From NCBI GenBank assembly GCA_964553265.1, contig CAZKKD010000002.1, positions 1 to 32,421 on the forward strand: a stretch of 32,421 nucleotides of DNA, written 5' to 3'. The notes beneath the pieces were generated by a model. That model was not told the DNA's origin. It saw only the letters and a program-made list of their open reading frames with translations, and ran no database searches. The position numbers and the translations under genes are program-made. This DNA comes from an uncultured Planctomycetales bacterium (lineage in GTDB: Bacteria; Planctomycetota; SZUA-567; JAFGNG01). This document shows, in pieces, positions 4,420 to 14,320 of this stretch (the first letter of the stretch is position 1; each line of letters begins with the position of its first letter).

Positions 4420-6597
4420 ATGACGACGGACGCAGCCCCGCGCTTTCGCGACGCCTCCCTCCCCGCCGGGGAGCGGGCGAAGGACCTGGTCGACCGGCTG
4501 ACCCTGAACGAGAAGATCAGCCAGACCCTCTACACCGCGCCGGCCATCCCCCGGCTCGACATCCCCGAGTACAACTGGTGGAACGAGTGCCTCCACGGGG
4601 TGGCGCGCGCCGGCGTGGCGACCGTCTTTCCCCAGGCCATCGGCATGGCCGCGACCTGGAACGACGATCTCCTCCGCCAGGCGGCCGACTGCATCGCCAC
4701 CGAGGGCCGCGCCCGCCACCACGAGGCCGCCCGCCGCGGCGACCGCAACATCTACAAGGGCCTCACCTACTGGACCCCGAACATCAACATCTTCCGCGAT
4801 CCCCGCTGGGGCCGCGGGCACGAGACCTACGGCGAATGCCCCTTCCTCACCGCGCGGATGGGCGTCGCGTTCGTCAAGGGCCTCCAGGGCGACGACCCGA
4901 AATACATGAAGGCCGCCGCCTGCGCCAAGCACTACGCCGTCCACAGCGGCCCCGAGGTGGGGCGCCACAGCTTCGACAGCCAGTGCTCGGAAAAGGACCT
5001 GTGGGAAACCTACCTCCCCGCCTTCCACGCGCTCGTGCGCGAGGCCGGCGTCGCCGGCGTGATGGGCGCGTACAACCGCACCAACGGCGAACCGTGCTGC
5101 GCCAGCAAGACGCTGGGCCAGGAGATCCTCCGCAAGCAGTGGGGCTTCACCGGTTACTTCGTCTCCGACTGCGGCGCCATCCAGGACATCCACGCCCACC
5201 ACGGCTACACCGCCAACGGCGCCGAATCCGCCGCGCTCGCCATCCGGCTGGGCTGCGACCTCAACTGCGGGAGCGTCTACAAGGACCTTGTCATCGCCAC
5301 CACGCTCGGGCTCGTTTCCGAGGCGGAGATCGACGTCGCGGTCGAGCGCCTCTTCACCATCCGCTTCCGCCTGGGCCTGCTGGACGATCCGGAAAGCTAT
5401 ACCTACGGCCGGACCCCGTACGAGGTGAACGACTGCGAGGCCCATCACACGCTCAGCCTGGAGATGAGCCGGCAGTCGCTGGTGCTGCTGAAGAACGTCG
5501 ACGGACGCCTGCCGCTGCCGAAGAACCCGGGCTCCATCGCCGTGGTCGGCCCGACGGCGGCCGACGAGGACGTGCTGGTGGGCAACTACTTCGGCACCCC
5601 GTCGCAACGGGTCACCATCCTCGACGGCATCCGCCGGGCGGTGAGCCCGGAGACGACGGTCCGGTACGCCCAGGGGAGCGACCTTTTCGACGGGCAGACC
5701 CCGAACTGGGCCAACGACCCCGATCCGTGCCTGGCCGAGGGGCTGGCGGCGGTGGAGCGCGCGGACCTGACCGTGCTCTGCCTGGGGCTCTCCCCGCGCC
5801 TGGAAGGCGAGGAAGGGGACGTGGCCAACTCCGACGGCGGCGGCGACCGCCGCAGCATCCGCCTGCCGCGCTGCCAGGATCGGCTGCTCCGCGCCGTGGT
5901 GGCCACGGGCAAGCCGGTGGTGCTGGTCCTCACCGGCGGCAGCGCCCTGGCGCTCGGCGCGGTCGAGGCCGACCTGCCCGCCATCCTCATGGCCTGGTAC
6001 CCCGGCCAGTTCGGCGGCCGGGCGGTGGCCGAGGCGCTCTTCGGCGAGGTCAACCCGGCGGGGCGGCTGCCGGTGACGTTCTACCGCGACGACGATCAGC
6101 TCCCGCACTTCCACGACTACGCGATGACGAACCGCACCTACCGCTACTTCCGGGGCGAGCCGCTGTATCCGTTCGGCTACGGGCTCTCCTACACGCGCTT
6201 TGCCTACGAAGATCTCCAGCTCGGCGCGGAGACCCTGGCGGCGGGCGAGCCGCTCACCGTCCGGGCCCGGGTCACCAACACCGGCGACCGCGCCGGCGAC
6301 GAGGTGGCGCAGCTCTACCTCCGCGACCTCGAATCCTCCACCGAGCGCCCCGTCCACGACCTCCGCGGGTTCCGGCGCGTGCGGCTGAAGCCGGGCGAGA
6401 GCGCCGACCTGGAATTCGTCCTCAAGCCGCGCGACCTGGCGCTCGTCGACGACCAGGGACACTGCCGCATCGAAGCCGGGACGTTCCGCGTCTTCGTCGG
6501 CGGCCGCCAGCCGGACGCCCGCAGCGCCGCCCTGGCCGGCGCCGACGTCCTGGAGGCCGACTTCACCGTCACCGGCGAGGCCGCCCTGGAGCCGTAG
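4420..6597 (+). CDS. Glycoside hydrolase family 3 (beta-glucosidase/beta-xylosidase-like, 725 aa) with a C-terminal Fn3-like domain
   Basis: Frame of ORF 3832..6597 (+). The start is placed at MTTDAAPRFRD (ATG 4420), with AGGGAGA about 8 nt upstream. Landmarks: LTLNEKISQ, YNWWNECLHGVARAG, KHYAVHSGPE, nucleophile-type GYFVSDCGAI, and an Fn3-like tail EVAQLYLRDLESSTERPVHDLRGFRRVRLKPGES. The stop is TAG. Confidence 0.88.
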   Translation: MTTDAAPRFRDASLPAGERAKDLVDRLTLNEKISQTLYTAPAIPRLDIPEYNWWNECLHGVARAGVATVFPQAIGMAATWNDDLLRQAADCIATEGRARHHEAARRGDRNIYKGLTYWTPNINIFRDPRWGRGHETYGECPFLTARMGVAFVKGLQGDDPKYMKAAACAKHYAVHSGPEVGRHSFDSQCSEKDLWETYLPAFHALVREAGVAGVMGAYNRTNGEPCCASKTLGQEILRKQWGFTGYFVSDCGAIQDIHAHHGYTANGAESAALAIRLGCDLNCGSVYKDLVIATTLGLVSEAEIDVAVERLFTIRFRLGLLDDPESYTYGRTPYEVNDCEAHHTLSLEMSRQSLVLLKNVDGRLPLPKNPGSIAVVGPTAADEDVLVGNYFGTPSQRVTILDGIRRAVSPETTVRYAQGSDLFDGQTPNWANDPDPCLAEGLAAVERADLTVLCLGLSPRLEGEEGDVANSDGGGDRRSIRLPRCQDRLLRAVVATGKPVVLVLTGGSALALGAVEADLPAILMAWYPGQFGGRAVAEALFGEVNPAGRLPVTFYRDDDQLPHFHDYAMTNRTYRYFRGEPLYPFGYGLSYTRFAYEDLQLGAETLAAGEPLTVRARVTNTGDRAGDEVAQLYLRDLESSTERPVHDLRGFRRVRLKPGESADLEFVLKPRDLALVDDQGHCRIEAGTFRVFVGGRQPDARSAALAGADVLEADFTVTGEAALEP

Positions 6598-6844: not shown

Positions 6845-7213
6845 GTGCTCTGCCTTCTATTCGAAGCGAAATGCAAAAAGGTGAAGGGCATTTCGGACAA
6901 GCGTCACCGCAAGCAGATTCGTCAGCGACTGCTCAAGAGATGCGAAGGGGGACTGCTCAATTACCTTGGCAGCGGGAAAGACCGGGCAGGGGCTTTTGTG
7001 GTCCGGGAGCACGGTCGCGGATACGCACTCCGGTTCCTGGATTACAAGGTGCGCATTGCCGGATTCTTCACCAGCGACAACACGACATTCGTCGCCATCG
7101 ACTGGTTCAAAAAGGAACAAGACCGCAACAGCGAGGCGCAAAACGCTCTATATCGGCGGGCTGACGATCTGGCGAAAAGCGGAGAGTATGAGGAGTTGAG
7201 TCATGGCCATTGA
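6845..7213 (+). CDS. RelE/ParE-superfamily toxin, HigB/phage Gp49-like (122 aa, GTG start)
   Basis: ORF 6845..7213. The C-terminal core YALRFLDYKVRIAGFFTSDNTTFVAIDWFKKEQDRNSEAQNALYRRADDL matches the Gp49/HigB pattern (R-I-x-Y/F-F...-hG/W-F-K-K-x-Q-K...A). It lies upstream of, and overlaps by 11 nt, an XRE-HTH gene. The start is uncertain (GTG 6845 or GTG 6881). Confidence 0.7.
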   Translation: MLCLLFEAKCKKVKGISDKRHRKQIRQRLLKRCEGGLLNYLGSGKDRAGAFVVREHGRGYALRFLDYKVRIAGFFTSDNTTFVAIDWFKKEQDRNSEAQNALYRRADDLAKSGEYEELSHGH

Positions 7214-7691
7214 CCCCGAACTGGCGGCAGAGCTCGAAGAGACGGAAGGCACAGACATCGACGTCCTGGTCACGCTGCAAGATGACCTTGCCCGATGCCT
7301 TCTCACATACCTCAAGGCGAAGGGAATGACCCAGAAGGAACTGGCAAAGGAATCCGGCCTGACGGAGAAGCAAGTCAGTTGGATGGTCAACTCTAGCGGC
7401 AACTTCGAAATGGAGACCATTGCAAAGGTATTGGCCGGACTTGACCTGATGCCCGTCTTCGACGCCGTTCCGCGCGCACAGTACAAAAGCAGGGGCGCCT
7501 TTGTGGCATCCGATTGCCATGCAGGCAGCCCTTTCGGTACGATCAATGGCTTCAAAACGGCAACGGAATCCGCATCCCTGACTCCTTCCGCTTCCTCGGC
7601 CAGCATGCCCCTTGGCTCCGTTGTCGTAGGGGACAGTCTTCTCTCACAGAAAGCCCGCCCAAACCGATCCTCCCAAGGGACTGCAGCATAA
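7203..7691 (+). CDS. XRE-family HTH antitoxin (HigA-like, 162 aa) with a C-terminal extension of about 75 aa
   Basis: Classic HTH GMTQKELAKESGLTEKQVSWMVNSSGNFEMETIAKVLAGLDL. AGGAG lies 7 nt upstream of the ATG. A long Ser-rich tail follows the HTH and contains the FVASD motif. Confidence 0.8.
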   Translation: MAIDPELAAELEETEGTDIDVLVTLQDDLARCLLTYLKAKGMTQKELAKESGLTEKQVSWMVNSSGNFEMETIAKVLAGLDLMPVFDAVPRAQYKSRGAFVASDCHAGSPFGTINGFKTATESASLTPSASSASMPLGSVVVGDSLLSQKARPNRSSQGTAA

Positions 7692-7703
7692 GGAGCATGG
7701 AGC

Positions 7704-8018
7704 ATGGCAAAGCGAACGAAAGCAGGCCGCACACCGAAGGGTGACGCTTCATCAACGGAGCAACCCGAGAACCAACAAGCGCTTTTTGTAGACCCGACCC
7801 TGAAAACCCTCTTCTGCGACAATGTGAATTTCGCACTCCATGGCGATGGCCTCGTTCTCCTTCATGTTTTCAGCAAGCTCCCGGTAGGGGCAATGGAGCA
7901 GGCTCGACTCATGGTAACCCGGGATCACGCAAAACGGATCGTCCTTGCATTGTGCAAGACACTGGACTACCACCCGGAGCGAGAAGAGATTGATGCCTAC
8001 TCGAAGACGTTCGAATGA
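7704..8018 (+). CDS. Small protein (104 aa), DUF3467-like by motif; third gene of the islet-1 module
   Basis: AAGGAG lies 8 nt upstream, and the start is 12 nt after the antitoxin stop. LFCDNVNFALHGDGLVLLHVFSKLP...ARLMVTRDHAKRIVLALCKTLDYH resembles the DUF3467 pattern as I recall it (YaN.v.v.hs..EfvLdF....p...a.v..Rivm.P.hAKrll.aL..nl..YE). The family call is from memory. Confidence 0.6.
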   Translation: MAKRTKAGRTPKGDASSTEQPENQQALFVDPTLKTLFCDNVNFALHGDGLVLLHVFSKLPVGAMEQARLMVTRDHAKRIVLALCKTLDYHPEREEIDAYSKTFE

Positions 8019-10924: not shown

Positions 10925-11014
10925 GGAGGGCTGGCCGAGCGGTCGAAGGCGACGGTTTTGAAAACCGTTGGGGCGGCAACGTCCTCAGGGGTTCGAATCC
11001 TCTGCCCTCCGCCA
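10925..11014 (+). tRNA. tRNA-Ser(UGA): tRNA-Ser, anticodon UGA, with encoded CCA
   Basis: Folded by hand. Acceptor GGAGGGC/GCCCTCC; 3-bp D stem with loop GAGCGGTCGAA; anticodon stem ACGGT/ACCGT with loop TT-TGA-AA. The long variable arm is GGGCG-GCAA-CGTCC, the T arm is AGGGG-TTCGAAT-CCTCT, and the discriminator is G followed by CCA. Confidence 0.92.
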
Positions 11015-12373: not shown

Positions 12374-12581
12374 GTGGGCTCCATTCTCTGGCGGGCACAG
12401 AACAGACCGGCTTCGTTCAGCCTTCGCGCGACCCTCGGTGAACCAGGGATCGCTCTGCCGACGGGGCGTTGGGTTTTCGCAAGGCCCTCTTGCCTAATTC
12501 TCGGCATATCGACGGGATACCGGATGCATGCACAGCCGTTCGGCCGAAACCCGAATTCGGAGCGAGCGCACCCTTTCGAGC

Positions 12582-13085
12582 TTACTGCGGTTGAACACTC
12601 CCGGATGGCCTTTTCTTGTCCGACCCCTTGCATGCGCGGTTTGCGACCAGGCTCGATGATTGCTCTTCGGTATTCCCGGCATCCTTCACGAACTGCTTCA
12701 TCTGGTCGACAAAGGTCATTGTCGGAAGGAGAAGAGGTGCATGCGGCCCCCTGCCGGTCAGGTTGGAAATCATTTCTCGGACTGAGCCGTACAGCACTGC
12801 GCTTCCGTTGATCTCGGCGAATTGCCGCACCTGTTCCTGGGGAAGGTCATCCTGAACTTTGAACAGTCCCACGACCTCTATATCAAACATGTAAGGCGGA
12901 GGGGCATCCTTGGCCGCTTCGTTCTTCAGGGAAAACGTGATTTGCCAACGCCGCGGGTTATCCTTGTGGTGAGCCGACGCCACTTCACAGGACAGATCGC
13001 CCGGTCCATCACAGCCGGCATTACAAGCCTCCACATGGATGCGCGTGAAAAAGTAATTTTCAAGCGACAGGGGCGAGAGCATCAT
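12582..13085 (-). CDS. SecB-like chaperone (167 aa), third gene of a TAC module
   Basis: Frame of ORF 12582..13178 (-). The start is at MMLSPLSLENYFF (ATG 13085 or 13082), overlapping the antitoxin 3' end by about 25 nt. FDIEVVGLFKVQDDLPQEQVRQFAEINGSAVLYGSVREMISNLTGRGPHAPLLLPTMTF parallels the SecB core (..GiF.i......l...l...cp..LFPYaRe.is.l...G.FP.L.L.PvNF). Confidence 0.75.
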   Translation of the reverse strand: MMLSPLSLENYFFTRIHVEACNAGCDGPGDLSCEVASAHHKDNPRRWQITFSLKNEAAKDAPPPYMFDIEVVGLFKVQDDLPQEQVRQFAEINGSAVLYGSVREMISNLTGRGPHAPLLLPTMTFVDQMKQFVKDAGNTEEQSSSLVANRACKGSDKKRPSGSVQPQ

Positions 13086-13506
13086 GACCAAACTCCTTGT
13101 CGGAGGCGACAAAGGGGATGCAGGTGACATCCCGGTCTTGCGTGTAGGACGCACGCATCGCATCGAGGTCCACTTCACCGCCCTCGGCAGAACCCGGCTT
13201 CACGTCAAACCAGAGAGACTGGGCGTCCTCGGGTCGAAGATGGATCCGGAAGTCGGTATCGAGCGCTCTGGCAATCTTTGCCATGGACTCCAGGGTGAAG
13301 TTGTAATCCCCCTTGAGTATTTTTGTGATGTAGGATGGGCGTACCTTCATCCGTTTGGCGAGGTCCGAACGGGAGATCCCTTTTGCCTCCATGCGCCGGA
13401 GCATCTCCTCAGTGAATTCGATGATCGCGCCCTCGATCCAGTACTCGAGAGACTGCTCCGCCTTTTTGAAAAGCTGCTGGAACTCTTTCCCCGGTCCTCT
13501 GCTCAT
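13060..13506 (-). CDS. XRE-family HTH antitoxin (HigA-like, 148 aa) with a C-terminal extension
   Basis: Frame of ORF 13060..13620 (-). The start is at MSRGPGKEFQQLF (ATG 13506), 1 nt after the toxin stop. The HTH is GISRSDLAKRMKVRPSYITKILKGDYNFTLESMAKIARALD. A tail of about 58 aa contains FVASD (13113-13099). Confidence 0.8.
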   Translation of the reverse strand: MSRGPGKEFQQLFKKAEQSLEYWIEGAIIEFTEEMLRRMEAKGISRSDLAKRMKVRPSYITKILKGDYNFTLESMAKIARALDTDFRIHLRPEDAQSLWFDVKPGSAEGGEVDLDAMRASYTQDRDVTCIPFVASDKEFGHDALAPVA

Positions 13507-13507
13507 C

Positions 13508-13903
13508 TCAAATCTCCCTGACGCGGCCCTCGGCCTTTGCCGACCGGTACAGATCCCGGATGCGCCGGGCCCTGTCGATCTCGCCGGGTGGGGTCTTTTG
13601 ACGCTTTTTGACGAAGCCATGCGTACAGATGATCAGATTCTCCTCATCCCAAAACCATGCGATCCGCAGGCAACCACCCTTGAACTCAAAGATTCCGTCT
13701 TCAAGACTGCGACACTTCTCCTTGTTGCGAATGCGACCCCGCTCCGCCATTTCCCGCAGAACACGCATGAGGCGGGCGAAATCCGTCGCTCTGCCCCTCC
13801 CCTACTCATCCAGAAAGCCACGCAGGTCACAGCCGTGGCCATCGATGGCCGTGACTCGGCAAGACGCACCAGACCAAACGACTTGCAGGTTCACGTCACT
13901 CAT
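13508..13903 (-). pseudogene. HigB/Gp49-like toxin gene interrupted by an in-frame TAG at codon 34
   Basis: The ORF track lists only the distal 86 aa (13508..13768). Hand translation from ATG 13903 gives MSDVNLQVVWSGASCRVTAIDGHGCDLRGFLDE-TAG(13804-13802)-GRGRATDFARL-MRVLREMAERGRIRNKEKCRSLEDGIFEFKGGCLRIAWFWDEENLIICTHGFVKKRQKTPPGEIDRARRIR..., all in one frame. Together this is a full-length Gp49-type toxin of about 130 aa. There is no SD in front of the internal ATG at 13768. Confidence 0.65.
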
Positions 13904-13907
13904 AAGA

Positions 13908-13935
13908 AGATTAACCTATAGGTGAACGATGTCAA
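13908..13935 (-). promoter_or_regulatory. Candidate promoter for the TAC operon (possibly giving a near-leaderless transcript)
   Basis: On the minus strand: TTGACA (13935-13930), a 16-nt spacer, then TAATCT (13913-13908). The -10 element ends only 4 nt before ATG 13903, and no SD is visible. Confidence 0.3.
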
Positions 13936-14108
13936 ATGAAAATGCTTTTTTGTGCTCATTGACACTCATAACGTATTGAAAGAAAAGGAGTTGCGAAAAA
14001 CCACTTCCAGCAGCCGCTGAACATGTTTTCCCTCTTGCGGTTACACTTAGTGGAACGTCCCGCAAGTAGATGAACAAATTCGCCGGGCGCCGCCCTCATC
14101 CTAACCCC

Positions 14109-14208
14109 AATACGGTTCAGCTAAGCGGTGGCACGGCCATCTTGGCCGTGGAATCATGGGCTGGAAGCCCATGCCACGACGCACCGGTCGTCTTAACTGA
14201 ACCGTATT
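14109..14208. repeat. 100-bp element bounded by 17-bp inverted repeats and enclosing two 7-bp GC stem-loops (MITE-like element or structured RNA)
   Basis: Left arm aatacggttcagctaag (14109-14125); right arm cttaactgaaccgtatt (14192-14208); 16/17 positions are complementary. Internal hairpins are cacggcc-atctt-ggccgtg (14132-14150) and catgggc-tggaa-gcccatg (14155-14173). The hexamer cctaac occurs 3 nt outside each arm (14100-14105 and 14212-14217). Confidence 0.5.
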
Positions 14209-14210
14209 GT

Positions 14211-14237
14211 CCCTAACTCTCTCCCAAAGGGAGAGGG
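14211..14237. repeat. REP-like palindromic unit, third copy
   Basis: ccctaactctctccc-aaa-gggagaggg matches unit 2 (10767-10796 region) at 26 of 30 aligned positions. It lies about 85 nt downstream of the stop of the pseudopilin-like operon, so it may also act as a terminator hairpin. Confidence 0.65.
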
Positions 14238-14320
14238 AATGTTCACCAACTTGCGGGGCGCTGTACTTAGACAAGCGGACGCCGATGATCGGGCACGCTC
14301 TTTCGCGCTTCCGTTCCGCG

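What the first reader, a model, noticed from the sequence alone, without database searches (positions are those of the whole stretch)
13802..13804. In-frame amber codon splits the TAC toxin gene; antitoxin and chaperone stay intact
Read directly on the minus strand: ...GGC TTT CTG GAT GAG TAG GGG AGG GGC AGA GCG ACG GAT TTC GCC CGC CTC ATG CGT... The 33 codons before the TAG and the 97 after it are in one frame. Together they form a full-length Gp49/HigB-like protein (the ...DLRGFLDE and ...ATDFARLMRVLREMAERG parts correspond to the usual N-terminal helices).

TAG is a genuine stop in this genome: GH3, argG and exbB all end in TAG. There is no SD before the internal ATG at 13768. The toxin is therefore most probably inactivated by a very recent single nonsense mutation. 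That would leave an 'orphan' antitoxin-chaperone pair, which could act as an anti-addiction module or be an early step in TA decay. Low-level read-through giving sub-lethal toxin is the alternative.
Basis: seen in the sequence. Interest (0 to 1): 0.6.

Follow-up and report, generated by a model that had tools for sequence, protein, structure and literature searches.

The report
Amber-stopped toxin gene in TAC module
A three-gene toxin-antitoxin-chaperone cassette carries a real premature stop codon in its toxin gene while the antitoxin and chaperone genes stay whole, which is the ordinary, well-known way such cassettes decay.

Summary
On the minus strand a TAG (13804..13802) sits in frame, with 33 codons before it and 97 after. 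Read through, the 131-residue product is a full-length Gp49/HigB-type toxin. It folds confidently into the HigB fold, and the TAG lies inside helix 1.

All 119 closest relatives are 109-146 aa and have the N-terminal part. The aligned column is Leu in 71% of them. The only short form in 5.8 billion protein clusters is this window's own gene call.

TAG is a normal stop in this genome, and no amber-suppressor tRNA was found. An independently built contig from run SRR11308339 shows the same TAG.

Nothing else in the toxin gene is damaged, and the antitoxin and SecB-like chaperone genes are full length with strong ribosome-binding sites. The best reading is therefore a recent nonsense mutation that disables the toxin.

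This is ordinary. Two of 19 related toxin genes in other genomes of the phylum also carry an in-frame TAG next to an intact antitoxin, and toxin-antitoxin decay by nonsense mutation is already described.

Population heterogeneity and any anti-addiction role remain untested.

The parts
13802..13804 (-). In-frame amber codon (codon 34 of the toxin frame)
   Evidence: Read directly. The same base triplet is in the Logan contig L013 of SRR11308339. The aligned family column is L 85, A 13, Q 7, M 7 of 119.
13805..13903 (-). Toxin N-terminal segment, 33 codons from ATG 13903. In the model it forms strands 4-11 and 16-22 and the start of helix 27-37.
   Evidence: It is homologous to the N-terminus of all 119 relatives. 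Structure model.
13508..13801 (-). Toxin C-terminal segment, 97 codons plus TGA. It carries the Gp49 domain and the equivalents of the HigB-TAC catalytic pocket (R65, E73, K75, R80, F97, K99, Q102, K103).
   Evidence: Pfam Gp49 E 1.1e-14. Alignment to M. tuberculosis HigB1 chains, with catalytic residues listed in PMC9098466.
13748..13768 (-). Two internal in-frame ATGs: 13768 (86-aa ORF) and 13750 (80-aa ORF, the public gene call P0004). Neither has a usable SD.
   Evidence: Anti-SD duplex -3.3 and -4.3 kcal/mol.
13908..13935 (-). Promoter-like and operator block: TTGACA (13935-13930), a 16-nt spacer holding the palindrome ACCTATAGGT (13923-13914), then TAATCT (13913-13908), 4 nt before the toxin ATG.
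   Evidence: Read. Palindrome I6. The same block lies 1-4 nt before the toxin ATG in L002 and L034. Function is inferred. The consensus promoter scan did not call it.
13060..13506 (-). Antitoxin, 148 aa: HTH_3 domain at residues 38-86 plus a C-terminal tail of about 60 aa (candidate chaperone-addiction region). It starts 1 nt after the toxin stop and has the SD AGGGAG.
   Evidence: Full length against relatives. SD -8.2 kcal/mol.
12582..13085 (-). SecB-like chaperone, 167 aa. It overlaps the antitoxin's 3' end and has the SD AAGGAG.
   Evidence: Pfam SecB E 2.1e-9, 37.9 bits against a cut-off of 26. PDB hit to Rv1957, E 0.0048. Full length against relatives. SD -8.0 kcal/mol.
12450..14250 (.). 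Low-G+C islet (55.8%) holding the cassette, between the 3' ends of argG and a prepilin-type gene.
   Evidence: Genome G+C is 69.4%.

Best explanation
The locus is a horizontally acquired tripartite TAC cassette. It has a Gp49/HigB-type ribosome-dependent RNase toxin, an HTH antitoxin with a long C-terminal tail, and a SecB-like chaperone. A single base substitution, most likely TTG (Leu) or CAG (Gln) to TAG, turned codon 34 of the toxin gene into a stop.

Translation from the native ATG therefore ends after 33 residues, inside helix 1. The remaining 97 codons hold the whole catalytic pocket. They lack the N-terminal beta-hairpin, helix 1 and half of helix 2, and they have no ribosome-binding site of their own. 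Little or no active toxin should be made.

The antitoxin and chaperone genes keep their own strong SDs, and the promoter/operator block is intact, so they can still be expressed. The toxin is thus a young pseudogene. The cassette is at the first step of the familiar decay path in which the toxin is lost before the antitoxin.

Shown: the stop, the homology on both sides of it, the family's full-length norm, the normal use of TAG as a stop, and the intact partner genes.

Inferred: loss of activity, that the mutation is recent, and continued expression of the antitoxin and chaperone.
For: - The TAG is in frame with 33 and 97 flanking codons.
- The read-through product matches Gp49 at E 1.1e-14.
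- The AlphaFold2 model has pLDDT 92.5, with codon 34 inside helix 27-37.
- The closest folds are S. pneumoniae HigB 6af4 (E 1.8e-6) and M. tuberculosis HigB1 7awk (E 3.4e-4).
- The family has 456 proteins at E<1e-6. The best 119 are 109-146 aa and all have the N-terminal part. The only short entry is the window's own call.
- The TAG column holds Leu in 85 of 119 and Gln in 7 of 119. Both are one step from TAG.
- All 18 near-invariant residues are kept. The leave-one-out HMM score is 146.9 bits, within the family range of 112-206.
- TAG ends 22% of long ORFs, and none of the 37 tRNAs found has a CUA anticodon.
- The same TAG is in a second assembly.
- The same gene order with an intact toxin occurs in L002, L034, L015 and L018.
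- Two other genomes carry a related toxin with an in-frame TAG next to an intact antitoxin: L020 and L023.
- TAG is the commonest one-step nonsense outcome for this gene: 20 of 37 paths.
- TA decay by nonsense mutation is described in the literature (PMC7167474).
Against: - A mixed population, or a rare consensus error shared by both assemblies (possibly built from the same reads), is not excluded.
- No close orthologue exists; the best relative is 47% identical. The ancestral codon and the age of the mutation rest on family consensus only.
- The C-terminal fragment keeps every mapped catalytic residue. Loss of activity is inferred from the fold, not measured.
- The genome bin is only 78% complete, so a suppressor tRNA could lie in the missing part.
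Confidence: 0.78

Rival explanations
1. The TAG is not the true or only state of the population. It could be a consensus or sequencing error, or one allele of a mixed population in which an intact toxin allele also circulates.
For: The genome is a fragmented metagenome bin: 538 contigs, 78% complete. Reads could not be inspected. Logan contigs drop rare variants, as the tool description states.
Against: Two assemblies made with different software agree base for base over 1182 bp. No full-length allele at about 99% identity appears among 5.8 billion protein clusters; after the window's own call, the next best hit is 47% identical. Substitution errors in an Illumina consensus are rare (general knowledge).
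Confidence: 0.08
2. The stop is leaky or bypassed, so a small, biologically meaningful amount of toxin is still made. This could be full-length toxin by near-cognate read-through of UAG, or an 80-86-aa fragment by re-initiation after termination on a very short-leader mRNA.
For: The frame after the TAG is perfectly preserved with all catalytic equivalents. The toxin ATG lies only 4 nt after a -10-like hexamer, and its normal start is SD-independent. In-frame ATGs lie 33 and 51 nt after the TAG. A tRNA-Gln(CUG) that could misread UAG is present.
Against: No suppressor tRNA was found. The RNA around the stop shows no unusual structure, z-score 0.13. The base after the stop is G, not a context known for leakiness (general knowledge). 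The internal ATGs have no SD. The fragment would lack two strands and 1.5 helices of the fold. Preservation of the frame is equally expected for a young pseudogene.
Confidence: 0.1
3. The 80-86-aa ORF is the native toxin gene, and the upstream 33-codon ORF is unrelated leader sequence.
For: Public gene callers annotate an 80-aa or 86-aa Gp49 protein here. The Pfam Gp49 match covers only residues 43-114.
Against: Residues 8-33 align in all 119 relatives, with near-invariant A19 and F30. No other short member was found, although lengths down to 72 aa were eligible. The conserved promoter/operator block sits directly before ATG 13903, as in L002 and L034. The internal starts have no SD.
Confidence: 0.02
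4. TAG is decoded as an amino acid at this site, through pyrrolysine or a dedicated suppressor.
For: None beyond the open frame.
Against: TAG terminates 1226 long ORFs, including argG and GH3. No tRNA has a CUA anticodon. Relatives have ordinary Leu, Gln or Ala at this position.
Confidence: 0.02

Closest known systems
M. tuberculosis TAC system HigB1-HigA1-SecB^TA (Rv1955-Rv1956-Rv1957)
   Same: Same gene order: toxin, antitoxin, SecB-like chaperone. The toxin has the HigB fold (Foldseek 7awk E 3.4e-4), with equivalents of K58, E66, R68, R77, F93, K95, Q98 and K99. The antitoxin is an HTH protein with a long C-terminal tail. The chaperone matches Rv1957.
   Different: Sequence relation to HigB1 is very distant (E 0.14 by profile). 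The toxin here is interrupted by TAG, so the system cannot act as a growth-arrest or abortive module. Chaperone dependence of this antitoxin is not tested.
Streptococcus pneumoniae HigB (PDB 6af3/6af4), Gp49/PF05973 family
   Same: It is the best sequence match (E 6.9e-10) and the best fold match (E 1.8e-6, TM 0.60-0.70). It covers the N-terminal helices as well as the catalytic sheet.
   Different: It is a bipartite HigBA system without a chaperone and has an intact toxin.
Decaying chromosomal TA systems, such as ccdO157 in E. coli (Mine et al. 2009, cited in PMC7167474), and the anti-addiction model (Saavedra De Bast et al. 2008)
   Same: The toxin gene is inactivated by point or nonsense mutation while the antitoxin stays intact. 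The module is chromosomal and horizontally acquired.
   Different: Those cases were shown by comparing many strains and by toxicity assays. Here there is one genome bin and no assay. The module is tripartite, so a chaperone gene is also left without a toxin to control.

Membership tests
Gp49/HigB toxin family (Pfam PF05973, RelE/ParE superfamily) | Sequence match above the curated Pfam threshold | tested here: met
   54.7 bits against a cut-off of 23.9, E 1.1e-14.
Gp49/HigB toxin family (Pfam PF05973, RelE/ParE superfamily) | HigB/RelE-type fold: N-terminal helices packed on an antiparallel sheet, plus a C-terminal helix | tested here: met
   Model pLDDT 92.5. Foldseek top hits are HigB 6af4 and HigB1 7awk at probability 1.00. 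The model is of the read-through sequence.
Gp49/HigB toxin family (Pfam PF05973, RelE/ParE superfamily) | Catalytic-pocket residues present | tested here: met
   R65, E73, K75, R80, F97, K99, Q102 and K103 align to HigB1 K58, E66, R68, R77, F93, K95, Q98 and K99. N73 has no clear equivalent. All 18 near-invariant family residues are kept.
Gp49/HigB toxin family (Pfam PF05973, RelE/ParE superfamily) | Uninterrupted reading frame giving a full-length product (about 110-146 aa) | tested here: not met
   There is an in-frame TAG at codon 34. The gene is a family member by descent but a pseudogene as it stands.
[quoted passage not shown] | Three adjacent co-oriented genes: toxin, antitoxin, SecB-like chaperone | tested here: met
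   Gp49, HTH_3 and SecB hits in that order, with a 1-nt gap and a 26-nt overlap. The same order occurs in L002, L034, L015 and L018.
[quoted passage not shown] | Antitoxin carries a C-terminal chaperone-addiction (ChAD) extension that makes it depend on the chaperone | not testable with these tools
   A tail of about 60 aa beyond the HTH (residues 87-148) is present. Its binding to the chaperone needs an experiment.
[quoted passage not shown] | Active toxin whose neutralisation needs both antitoxin and chaperone | tested here: not met
   The toxin frame is broken by TAG. Activity is not measurable here, but the intact product cannot be made by standard decoding.

The most novel reading that the evidence does not exclude
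The amber codon is kept rather than merely tolerated. One version is that it acts as an attenuator: rare read-through, or re-initiation on a near-leaderless mRNA, supplies trace toxin. The other version is that the surviving antitoxin plus SecB-like chaperone pair is selected as immunity against incoming TAC-bearing elements, or as a helper for the neighbouring tripartite module at 6845-8018, whose antitoxin tail shares the FVASD motif.
Probability: 0.06. Interest if true: 0.5.

Novelty: new member of a known kind. Interest (0 to 1): 0.15.

Why it matters
It matters little beyond correct annotation. The public 80/86-aa "toxin" call is a fragment of a pseudogene, and this TAC cassette should not be counted as a working defence or growth-arrest module.

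It adds one clean example of the toxin being the first gene lost from a tripartite cassette. Two further examples in the same phylum show the same pattern in toxin-antitoxin pairs. If the leftover antitoxin-chaperone pair proved to be under selection, it would give a simple system for testing anti-addiction with a chaperone-dependent antitoxin.

Tried and rejected
- **Other copies or alleles.** An exact-pattern search across the TAG, with NNN at the codon, found nothing in metagenome contigs or genome contigs.
- **Close orthologue for the ancestral codon.** None exists. The own genome has one copy. The best relative among 60 related genomes is 42% identical. The best in 5.8 billion clusters is 47%.
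- **TAG recoding.** Rejected: TAG is a common stop and no CUA tRNA was found.
- **RNA structure that might promote read-through.** None: z-score 0.13, and no Rfam family in the region.
- **Short form as the native gene.** Rejected.
- **Sigma-70 promoter.** The consensus scan found none. The promoter-like reading of the conserved upstream block rests only on conservation in three loci. The spacing to the ATG differs in L034 (1 nt against 4 nt), so the leaderless-mRNA idea is unproven.
- **Stops reported in two other loci.** The 'stops inside' flags for L024 and L033 lie outside the genes, and both toxins are intact.

Full report
**Observation**

On the minus strand the sequence reads GGC TTT CTG GAT GAG TAG GGG AGG GGC, with the TAG at 13804..13802. 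ATG 13903 opens 33 sense codons. After the TAG, 97 sense codons run in the same frame to TGA 13510..13508.

**What the genes are**

- **Toxin.** Read through, the 131-residue product (P0001) matches Pfam Gp49 (PF05973) at E 1.1e-14.
- **Antitoxin.** The next gene (13506..13060, 148 aa) is an HTH_3 protein with a C-terminal tail of about 60 residues.
- **Chaperone.** The third gene (13085..12582, 167 aa) matches Pfam SecB above threshold and, in the PDB, the SecB-like chaperone Rv1957.

This is the gene order of a toxin-antitoxin-chaperone (TAC) system. The cassette lies in a 1.8-kb islet of 55.8% G+C. The window is 67% G+C and the genome 69.4%. The islet sits between the 3' ends of argG and a prepilin-type gene, so it was probably acquired horizontally.

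**Is the upstream 33-codon piece part of the gene?**

Yes.
- A relative in the same taxonomic family (L002) has an intact 133-aa toxin followed by a 151-aa antitoxin and a SecB-like gene.
- The closest database protein (P0005, 47% identity) sits in the same Gp49-HTH_3-SecB arrangement.
- A profile search found 456 family members at E<1e-6. The best 119 are 109-146 aa (median 130), and all have residues aligned to positions 8-33 of the window's protein.
- Lengths down to 72 aa were eligible, yet the only short entry is the window's own 80-aa gene call (P0004).

The 86-aa form is therefore not a conserved native gene.

**Where the stop falls**

The column aligned with the TAG holds Leu in 85 of 119 relatives, Ala in 13, Gln in 7 and Met in 7. 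TTG (Leu) and CAG (Gln) are each one substitution from TAG.

An AlphaFold2 model built on the 120-sequence alignment is confident (mean pLDDT 92.5). It has these elements:
- strands 4-11 and 16-22
- helices 27-37 and 39-55
- four further strands (64-66, 72-76, 79-86 and 89-92)
- helix 106-124
- a short terminal strand, 128-130

Codon 34 lies inside the first helix. Foldseek places the model with S. pneumoniae HigB (6af4, E 1.8e-6) and M. tuberculosis HigB1 (7awk, E 3.4e-4).

I mapped the catalytic-pocket residues reported for HigB-TAC (PMC9098466) through the profile alignment. They correspond to R65, E73, K75, R80, F97, K99, Q102 and K103. All lie downstream of the TAG and all are retained.

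A product starting at Met46 or Met52 would keep the catalytic pocket. It would lose the N-terminal hairpin, helix 1 and half of helix 2. I infer that it would not fold properly, but this is not shown.

**Is TAG really a stop here?**

- Among ORFs of at least 300 codons in the 4.15-Mb bin, 1226 end in TAG, 3844 in TGA and 458 in TAA.
- ARAGORN finds 37 tRNAs, none with a CUA anticodon.
- argG and the GH3 gene in the window end in TAG.
- The RNA around the stop has no unusual predicted structure (z-score 0.13), and no Rfam family lies there.

Recoding or programmed read-through has no support.

**Is the TAG real?**

The look-up of encoding contigs returned a 1182-bp Logan contig of run SRR11308339 that encodes the identical antitoxin. 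It is 100% identical to window 12893-14074 and shows the same TAG. This argues against an assembler artefact. It may derive from the same reads, and contigs hide minority alleles. No intact allele of this gene exists in the protein database: after the window's own call, the next hit is 47% identical. Pattern scans with the codon left free found nothing.

**How old is the mutation?**

There is no second lesion in 393 bases. All 18 near-invariant family residues are kept. A leave-one-out family HMM scores the read-through protein at 146.9 bits, inside the family range of 112-206. This fits a young pseudogene. With no close orthologue, it cannot be dated.

**Consequences for the operon**

- The antitoxin and chaperone are full length against four relatives.
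- Both have strong SDs (anti-SD duplex -8.2 and -8.0 kcal/mol).
- The toxin's native start and both internal ATGs have none (-3.1, -3.3 and -4.3 kcal/mol).
- The 295 nt of mRNA between the TAG and the antitoxin start are G-rich (G 106, C 69). That makes a poor Rho-loading site, so strong polarity is not expected (inference).
- Directly before the toxin ATG lies TTGACA, then a 16-nt spacer holding the palindrome ACCTATAGGT, then TAATCT and 4 nt.
- Nearly the same block precedes the toxin ATG in L002 and L034, although those toxins are only 40-47% identical.

I read this block as a promoter with an antitoxin operator, and possibly a very short or absent leader. The consensus scan did not call it, and the spacing differs in L034, so this remains inference. 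What the block does show is that the regulatory region of the window's cassette is undamaged.

**How unusual is this?**

Not very. I searched 400 genomes of the same phylum with the family profile and found matches in 19.
- Two carry an in-frame TAG at a conserved position, each followed by an intact HTH antitoxin. In L020 the TAG replaces the Trp seen in a relative. In L023 it replaces Lys.
- Two more (L019, L021) are N-terminally truncated remnants.

For the window's gene, TAG is also the commonest one-step nonsense outcome, at 20 of 37 paths. Decay of chromosomal TA systems by nonsense mutation, with the toxin going first, is described in the literature. So is the anti-addiction idea (PMC7167474 and references there).

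**Verdict**

The feature is a real, probably recent, nonsense mutation that turns the toxin of a TAC cassette into a pseudogene while the antitoxin and SecB-like chaperone stay intact. It is a new instance of a known process and of low interest. The anti-addiction role, leaky expression and population heterogeneity remain open. The first check to make is the read pile-up.

Noticed in passing
window 13908-13935; L002 1413-1464; L034 2472-2500: A block of about 30 nt (TTGAC[A/T]-N-GTT[C/A]ACCTATAGGTTAA) lies 1-4 nt before the toxin ATG in three TAC loci whose toxins are only 40-47% identical. It is probably a shared antitoxin operator inside a promoter and hints at a leaderless or near-leaderless toxin mRNA.
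   Followed up: partly
L020 1501-1824 (+) and L023 895-1239 (-): Two other genomes of the phylum carry Gp49-type toxin genes with one in-frame TAG (at a Trp and a Lys position of relatives), each next to an intact HTH antitoxin. L020 may have a second stop near its N-terminus.
   Followed up: partly
L019 about 1375-1640 and L021 about 1440-1716: Two genera of one family share an N-terminally truncated Gp49 remnant of about 88-93 codons with no obvious ATG. It is either an inherited pseudogene or a short form.
   Followed up: no
window 6845-8018: A second three-gene toxin-antitoxin-like module lies 5.5 kb away: 122-aa, 162-aa HTH and 104-aa proteins. Its toxin frame is intact and is not a Gp49 relative (only one Gp49 match in the genome). 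Its antitoxin tail contains FVASD, as does the tail of the antitoxin studied here.
   Followed up: partly
window 14046-14270: Nested inverted repeats lie just upstream of the cassette: 31-nt arms 14046-14076 / 14240-14270, and 18-nt arms 14108-14125 / 14192-14209 at 94% complementarity. The Logan contig L013 ends at 14074, inside the outer arm, which suggests a repeated element.
   Followed up: no
window 10925-11011: An 87-nt tRNA gene (Rfam tRNA, 53.4 bits) lies upstream of argG.
   Followed up: no
genome G000, a contig not identified, positions 4817-4910: ARAGORN reports a tRNA-SeC (anticodon TCA), so the organism probably uses selenocysteine.
   Followed up: no
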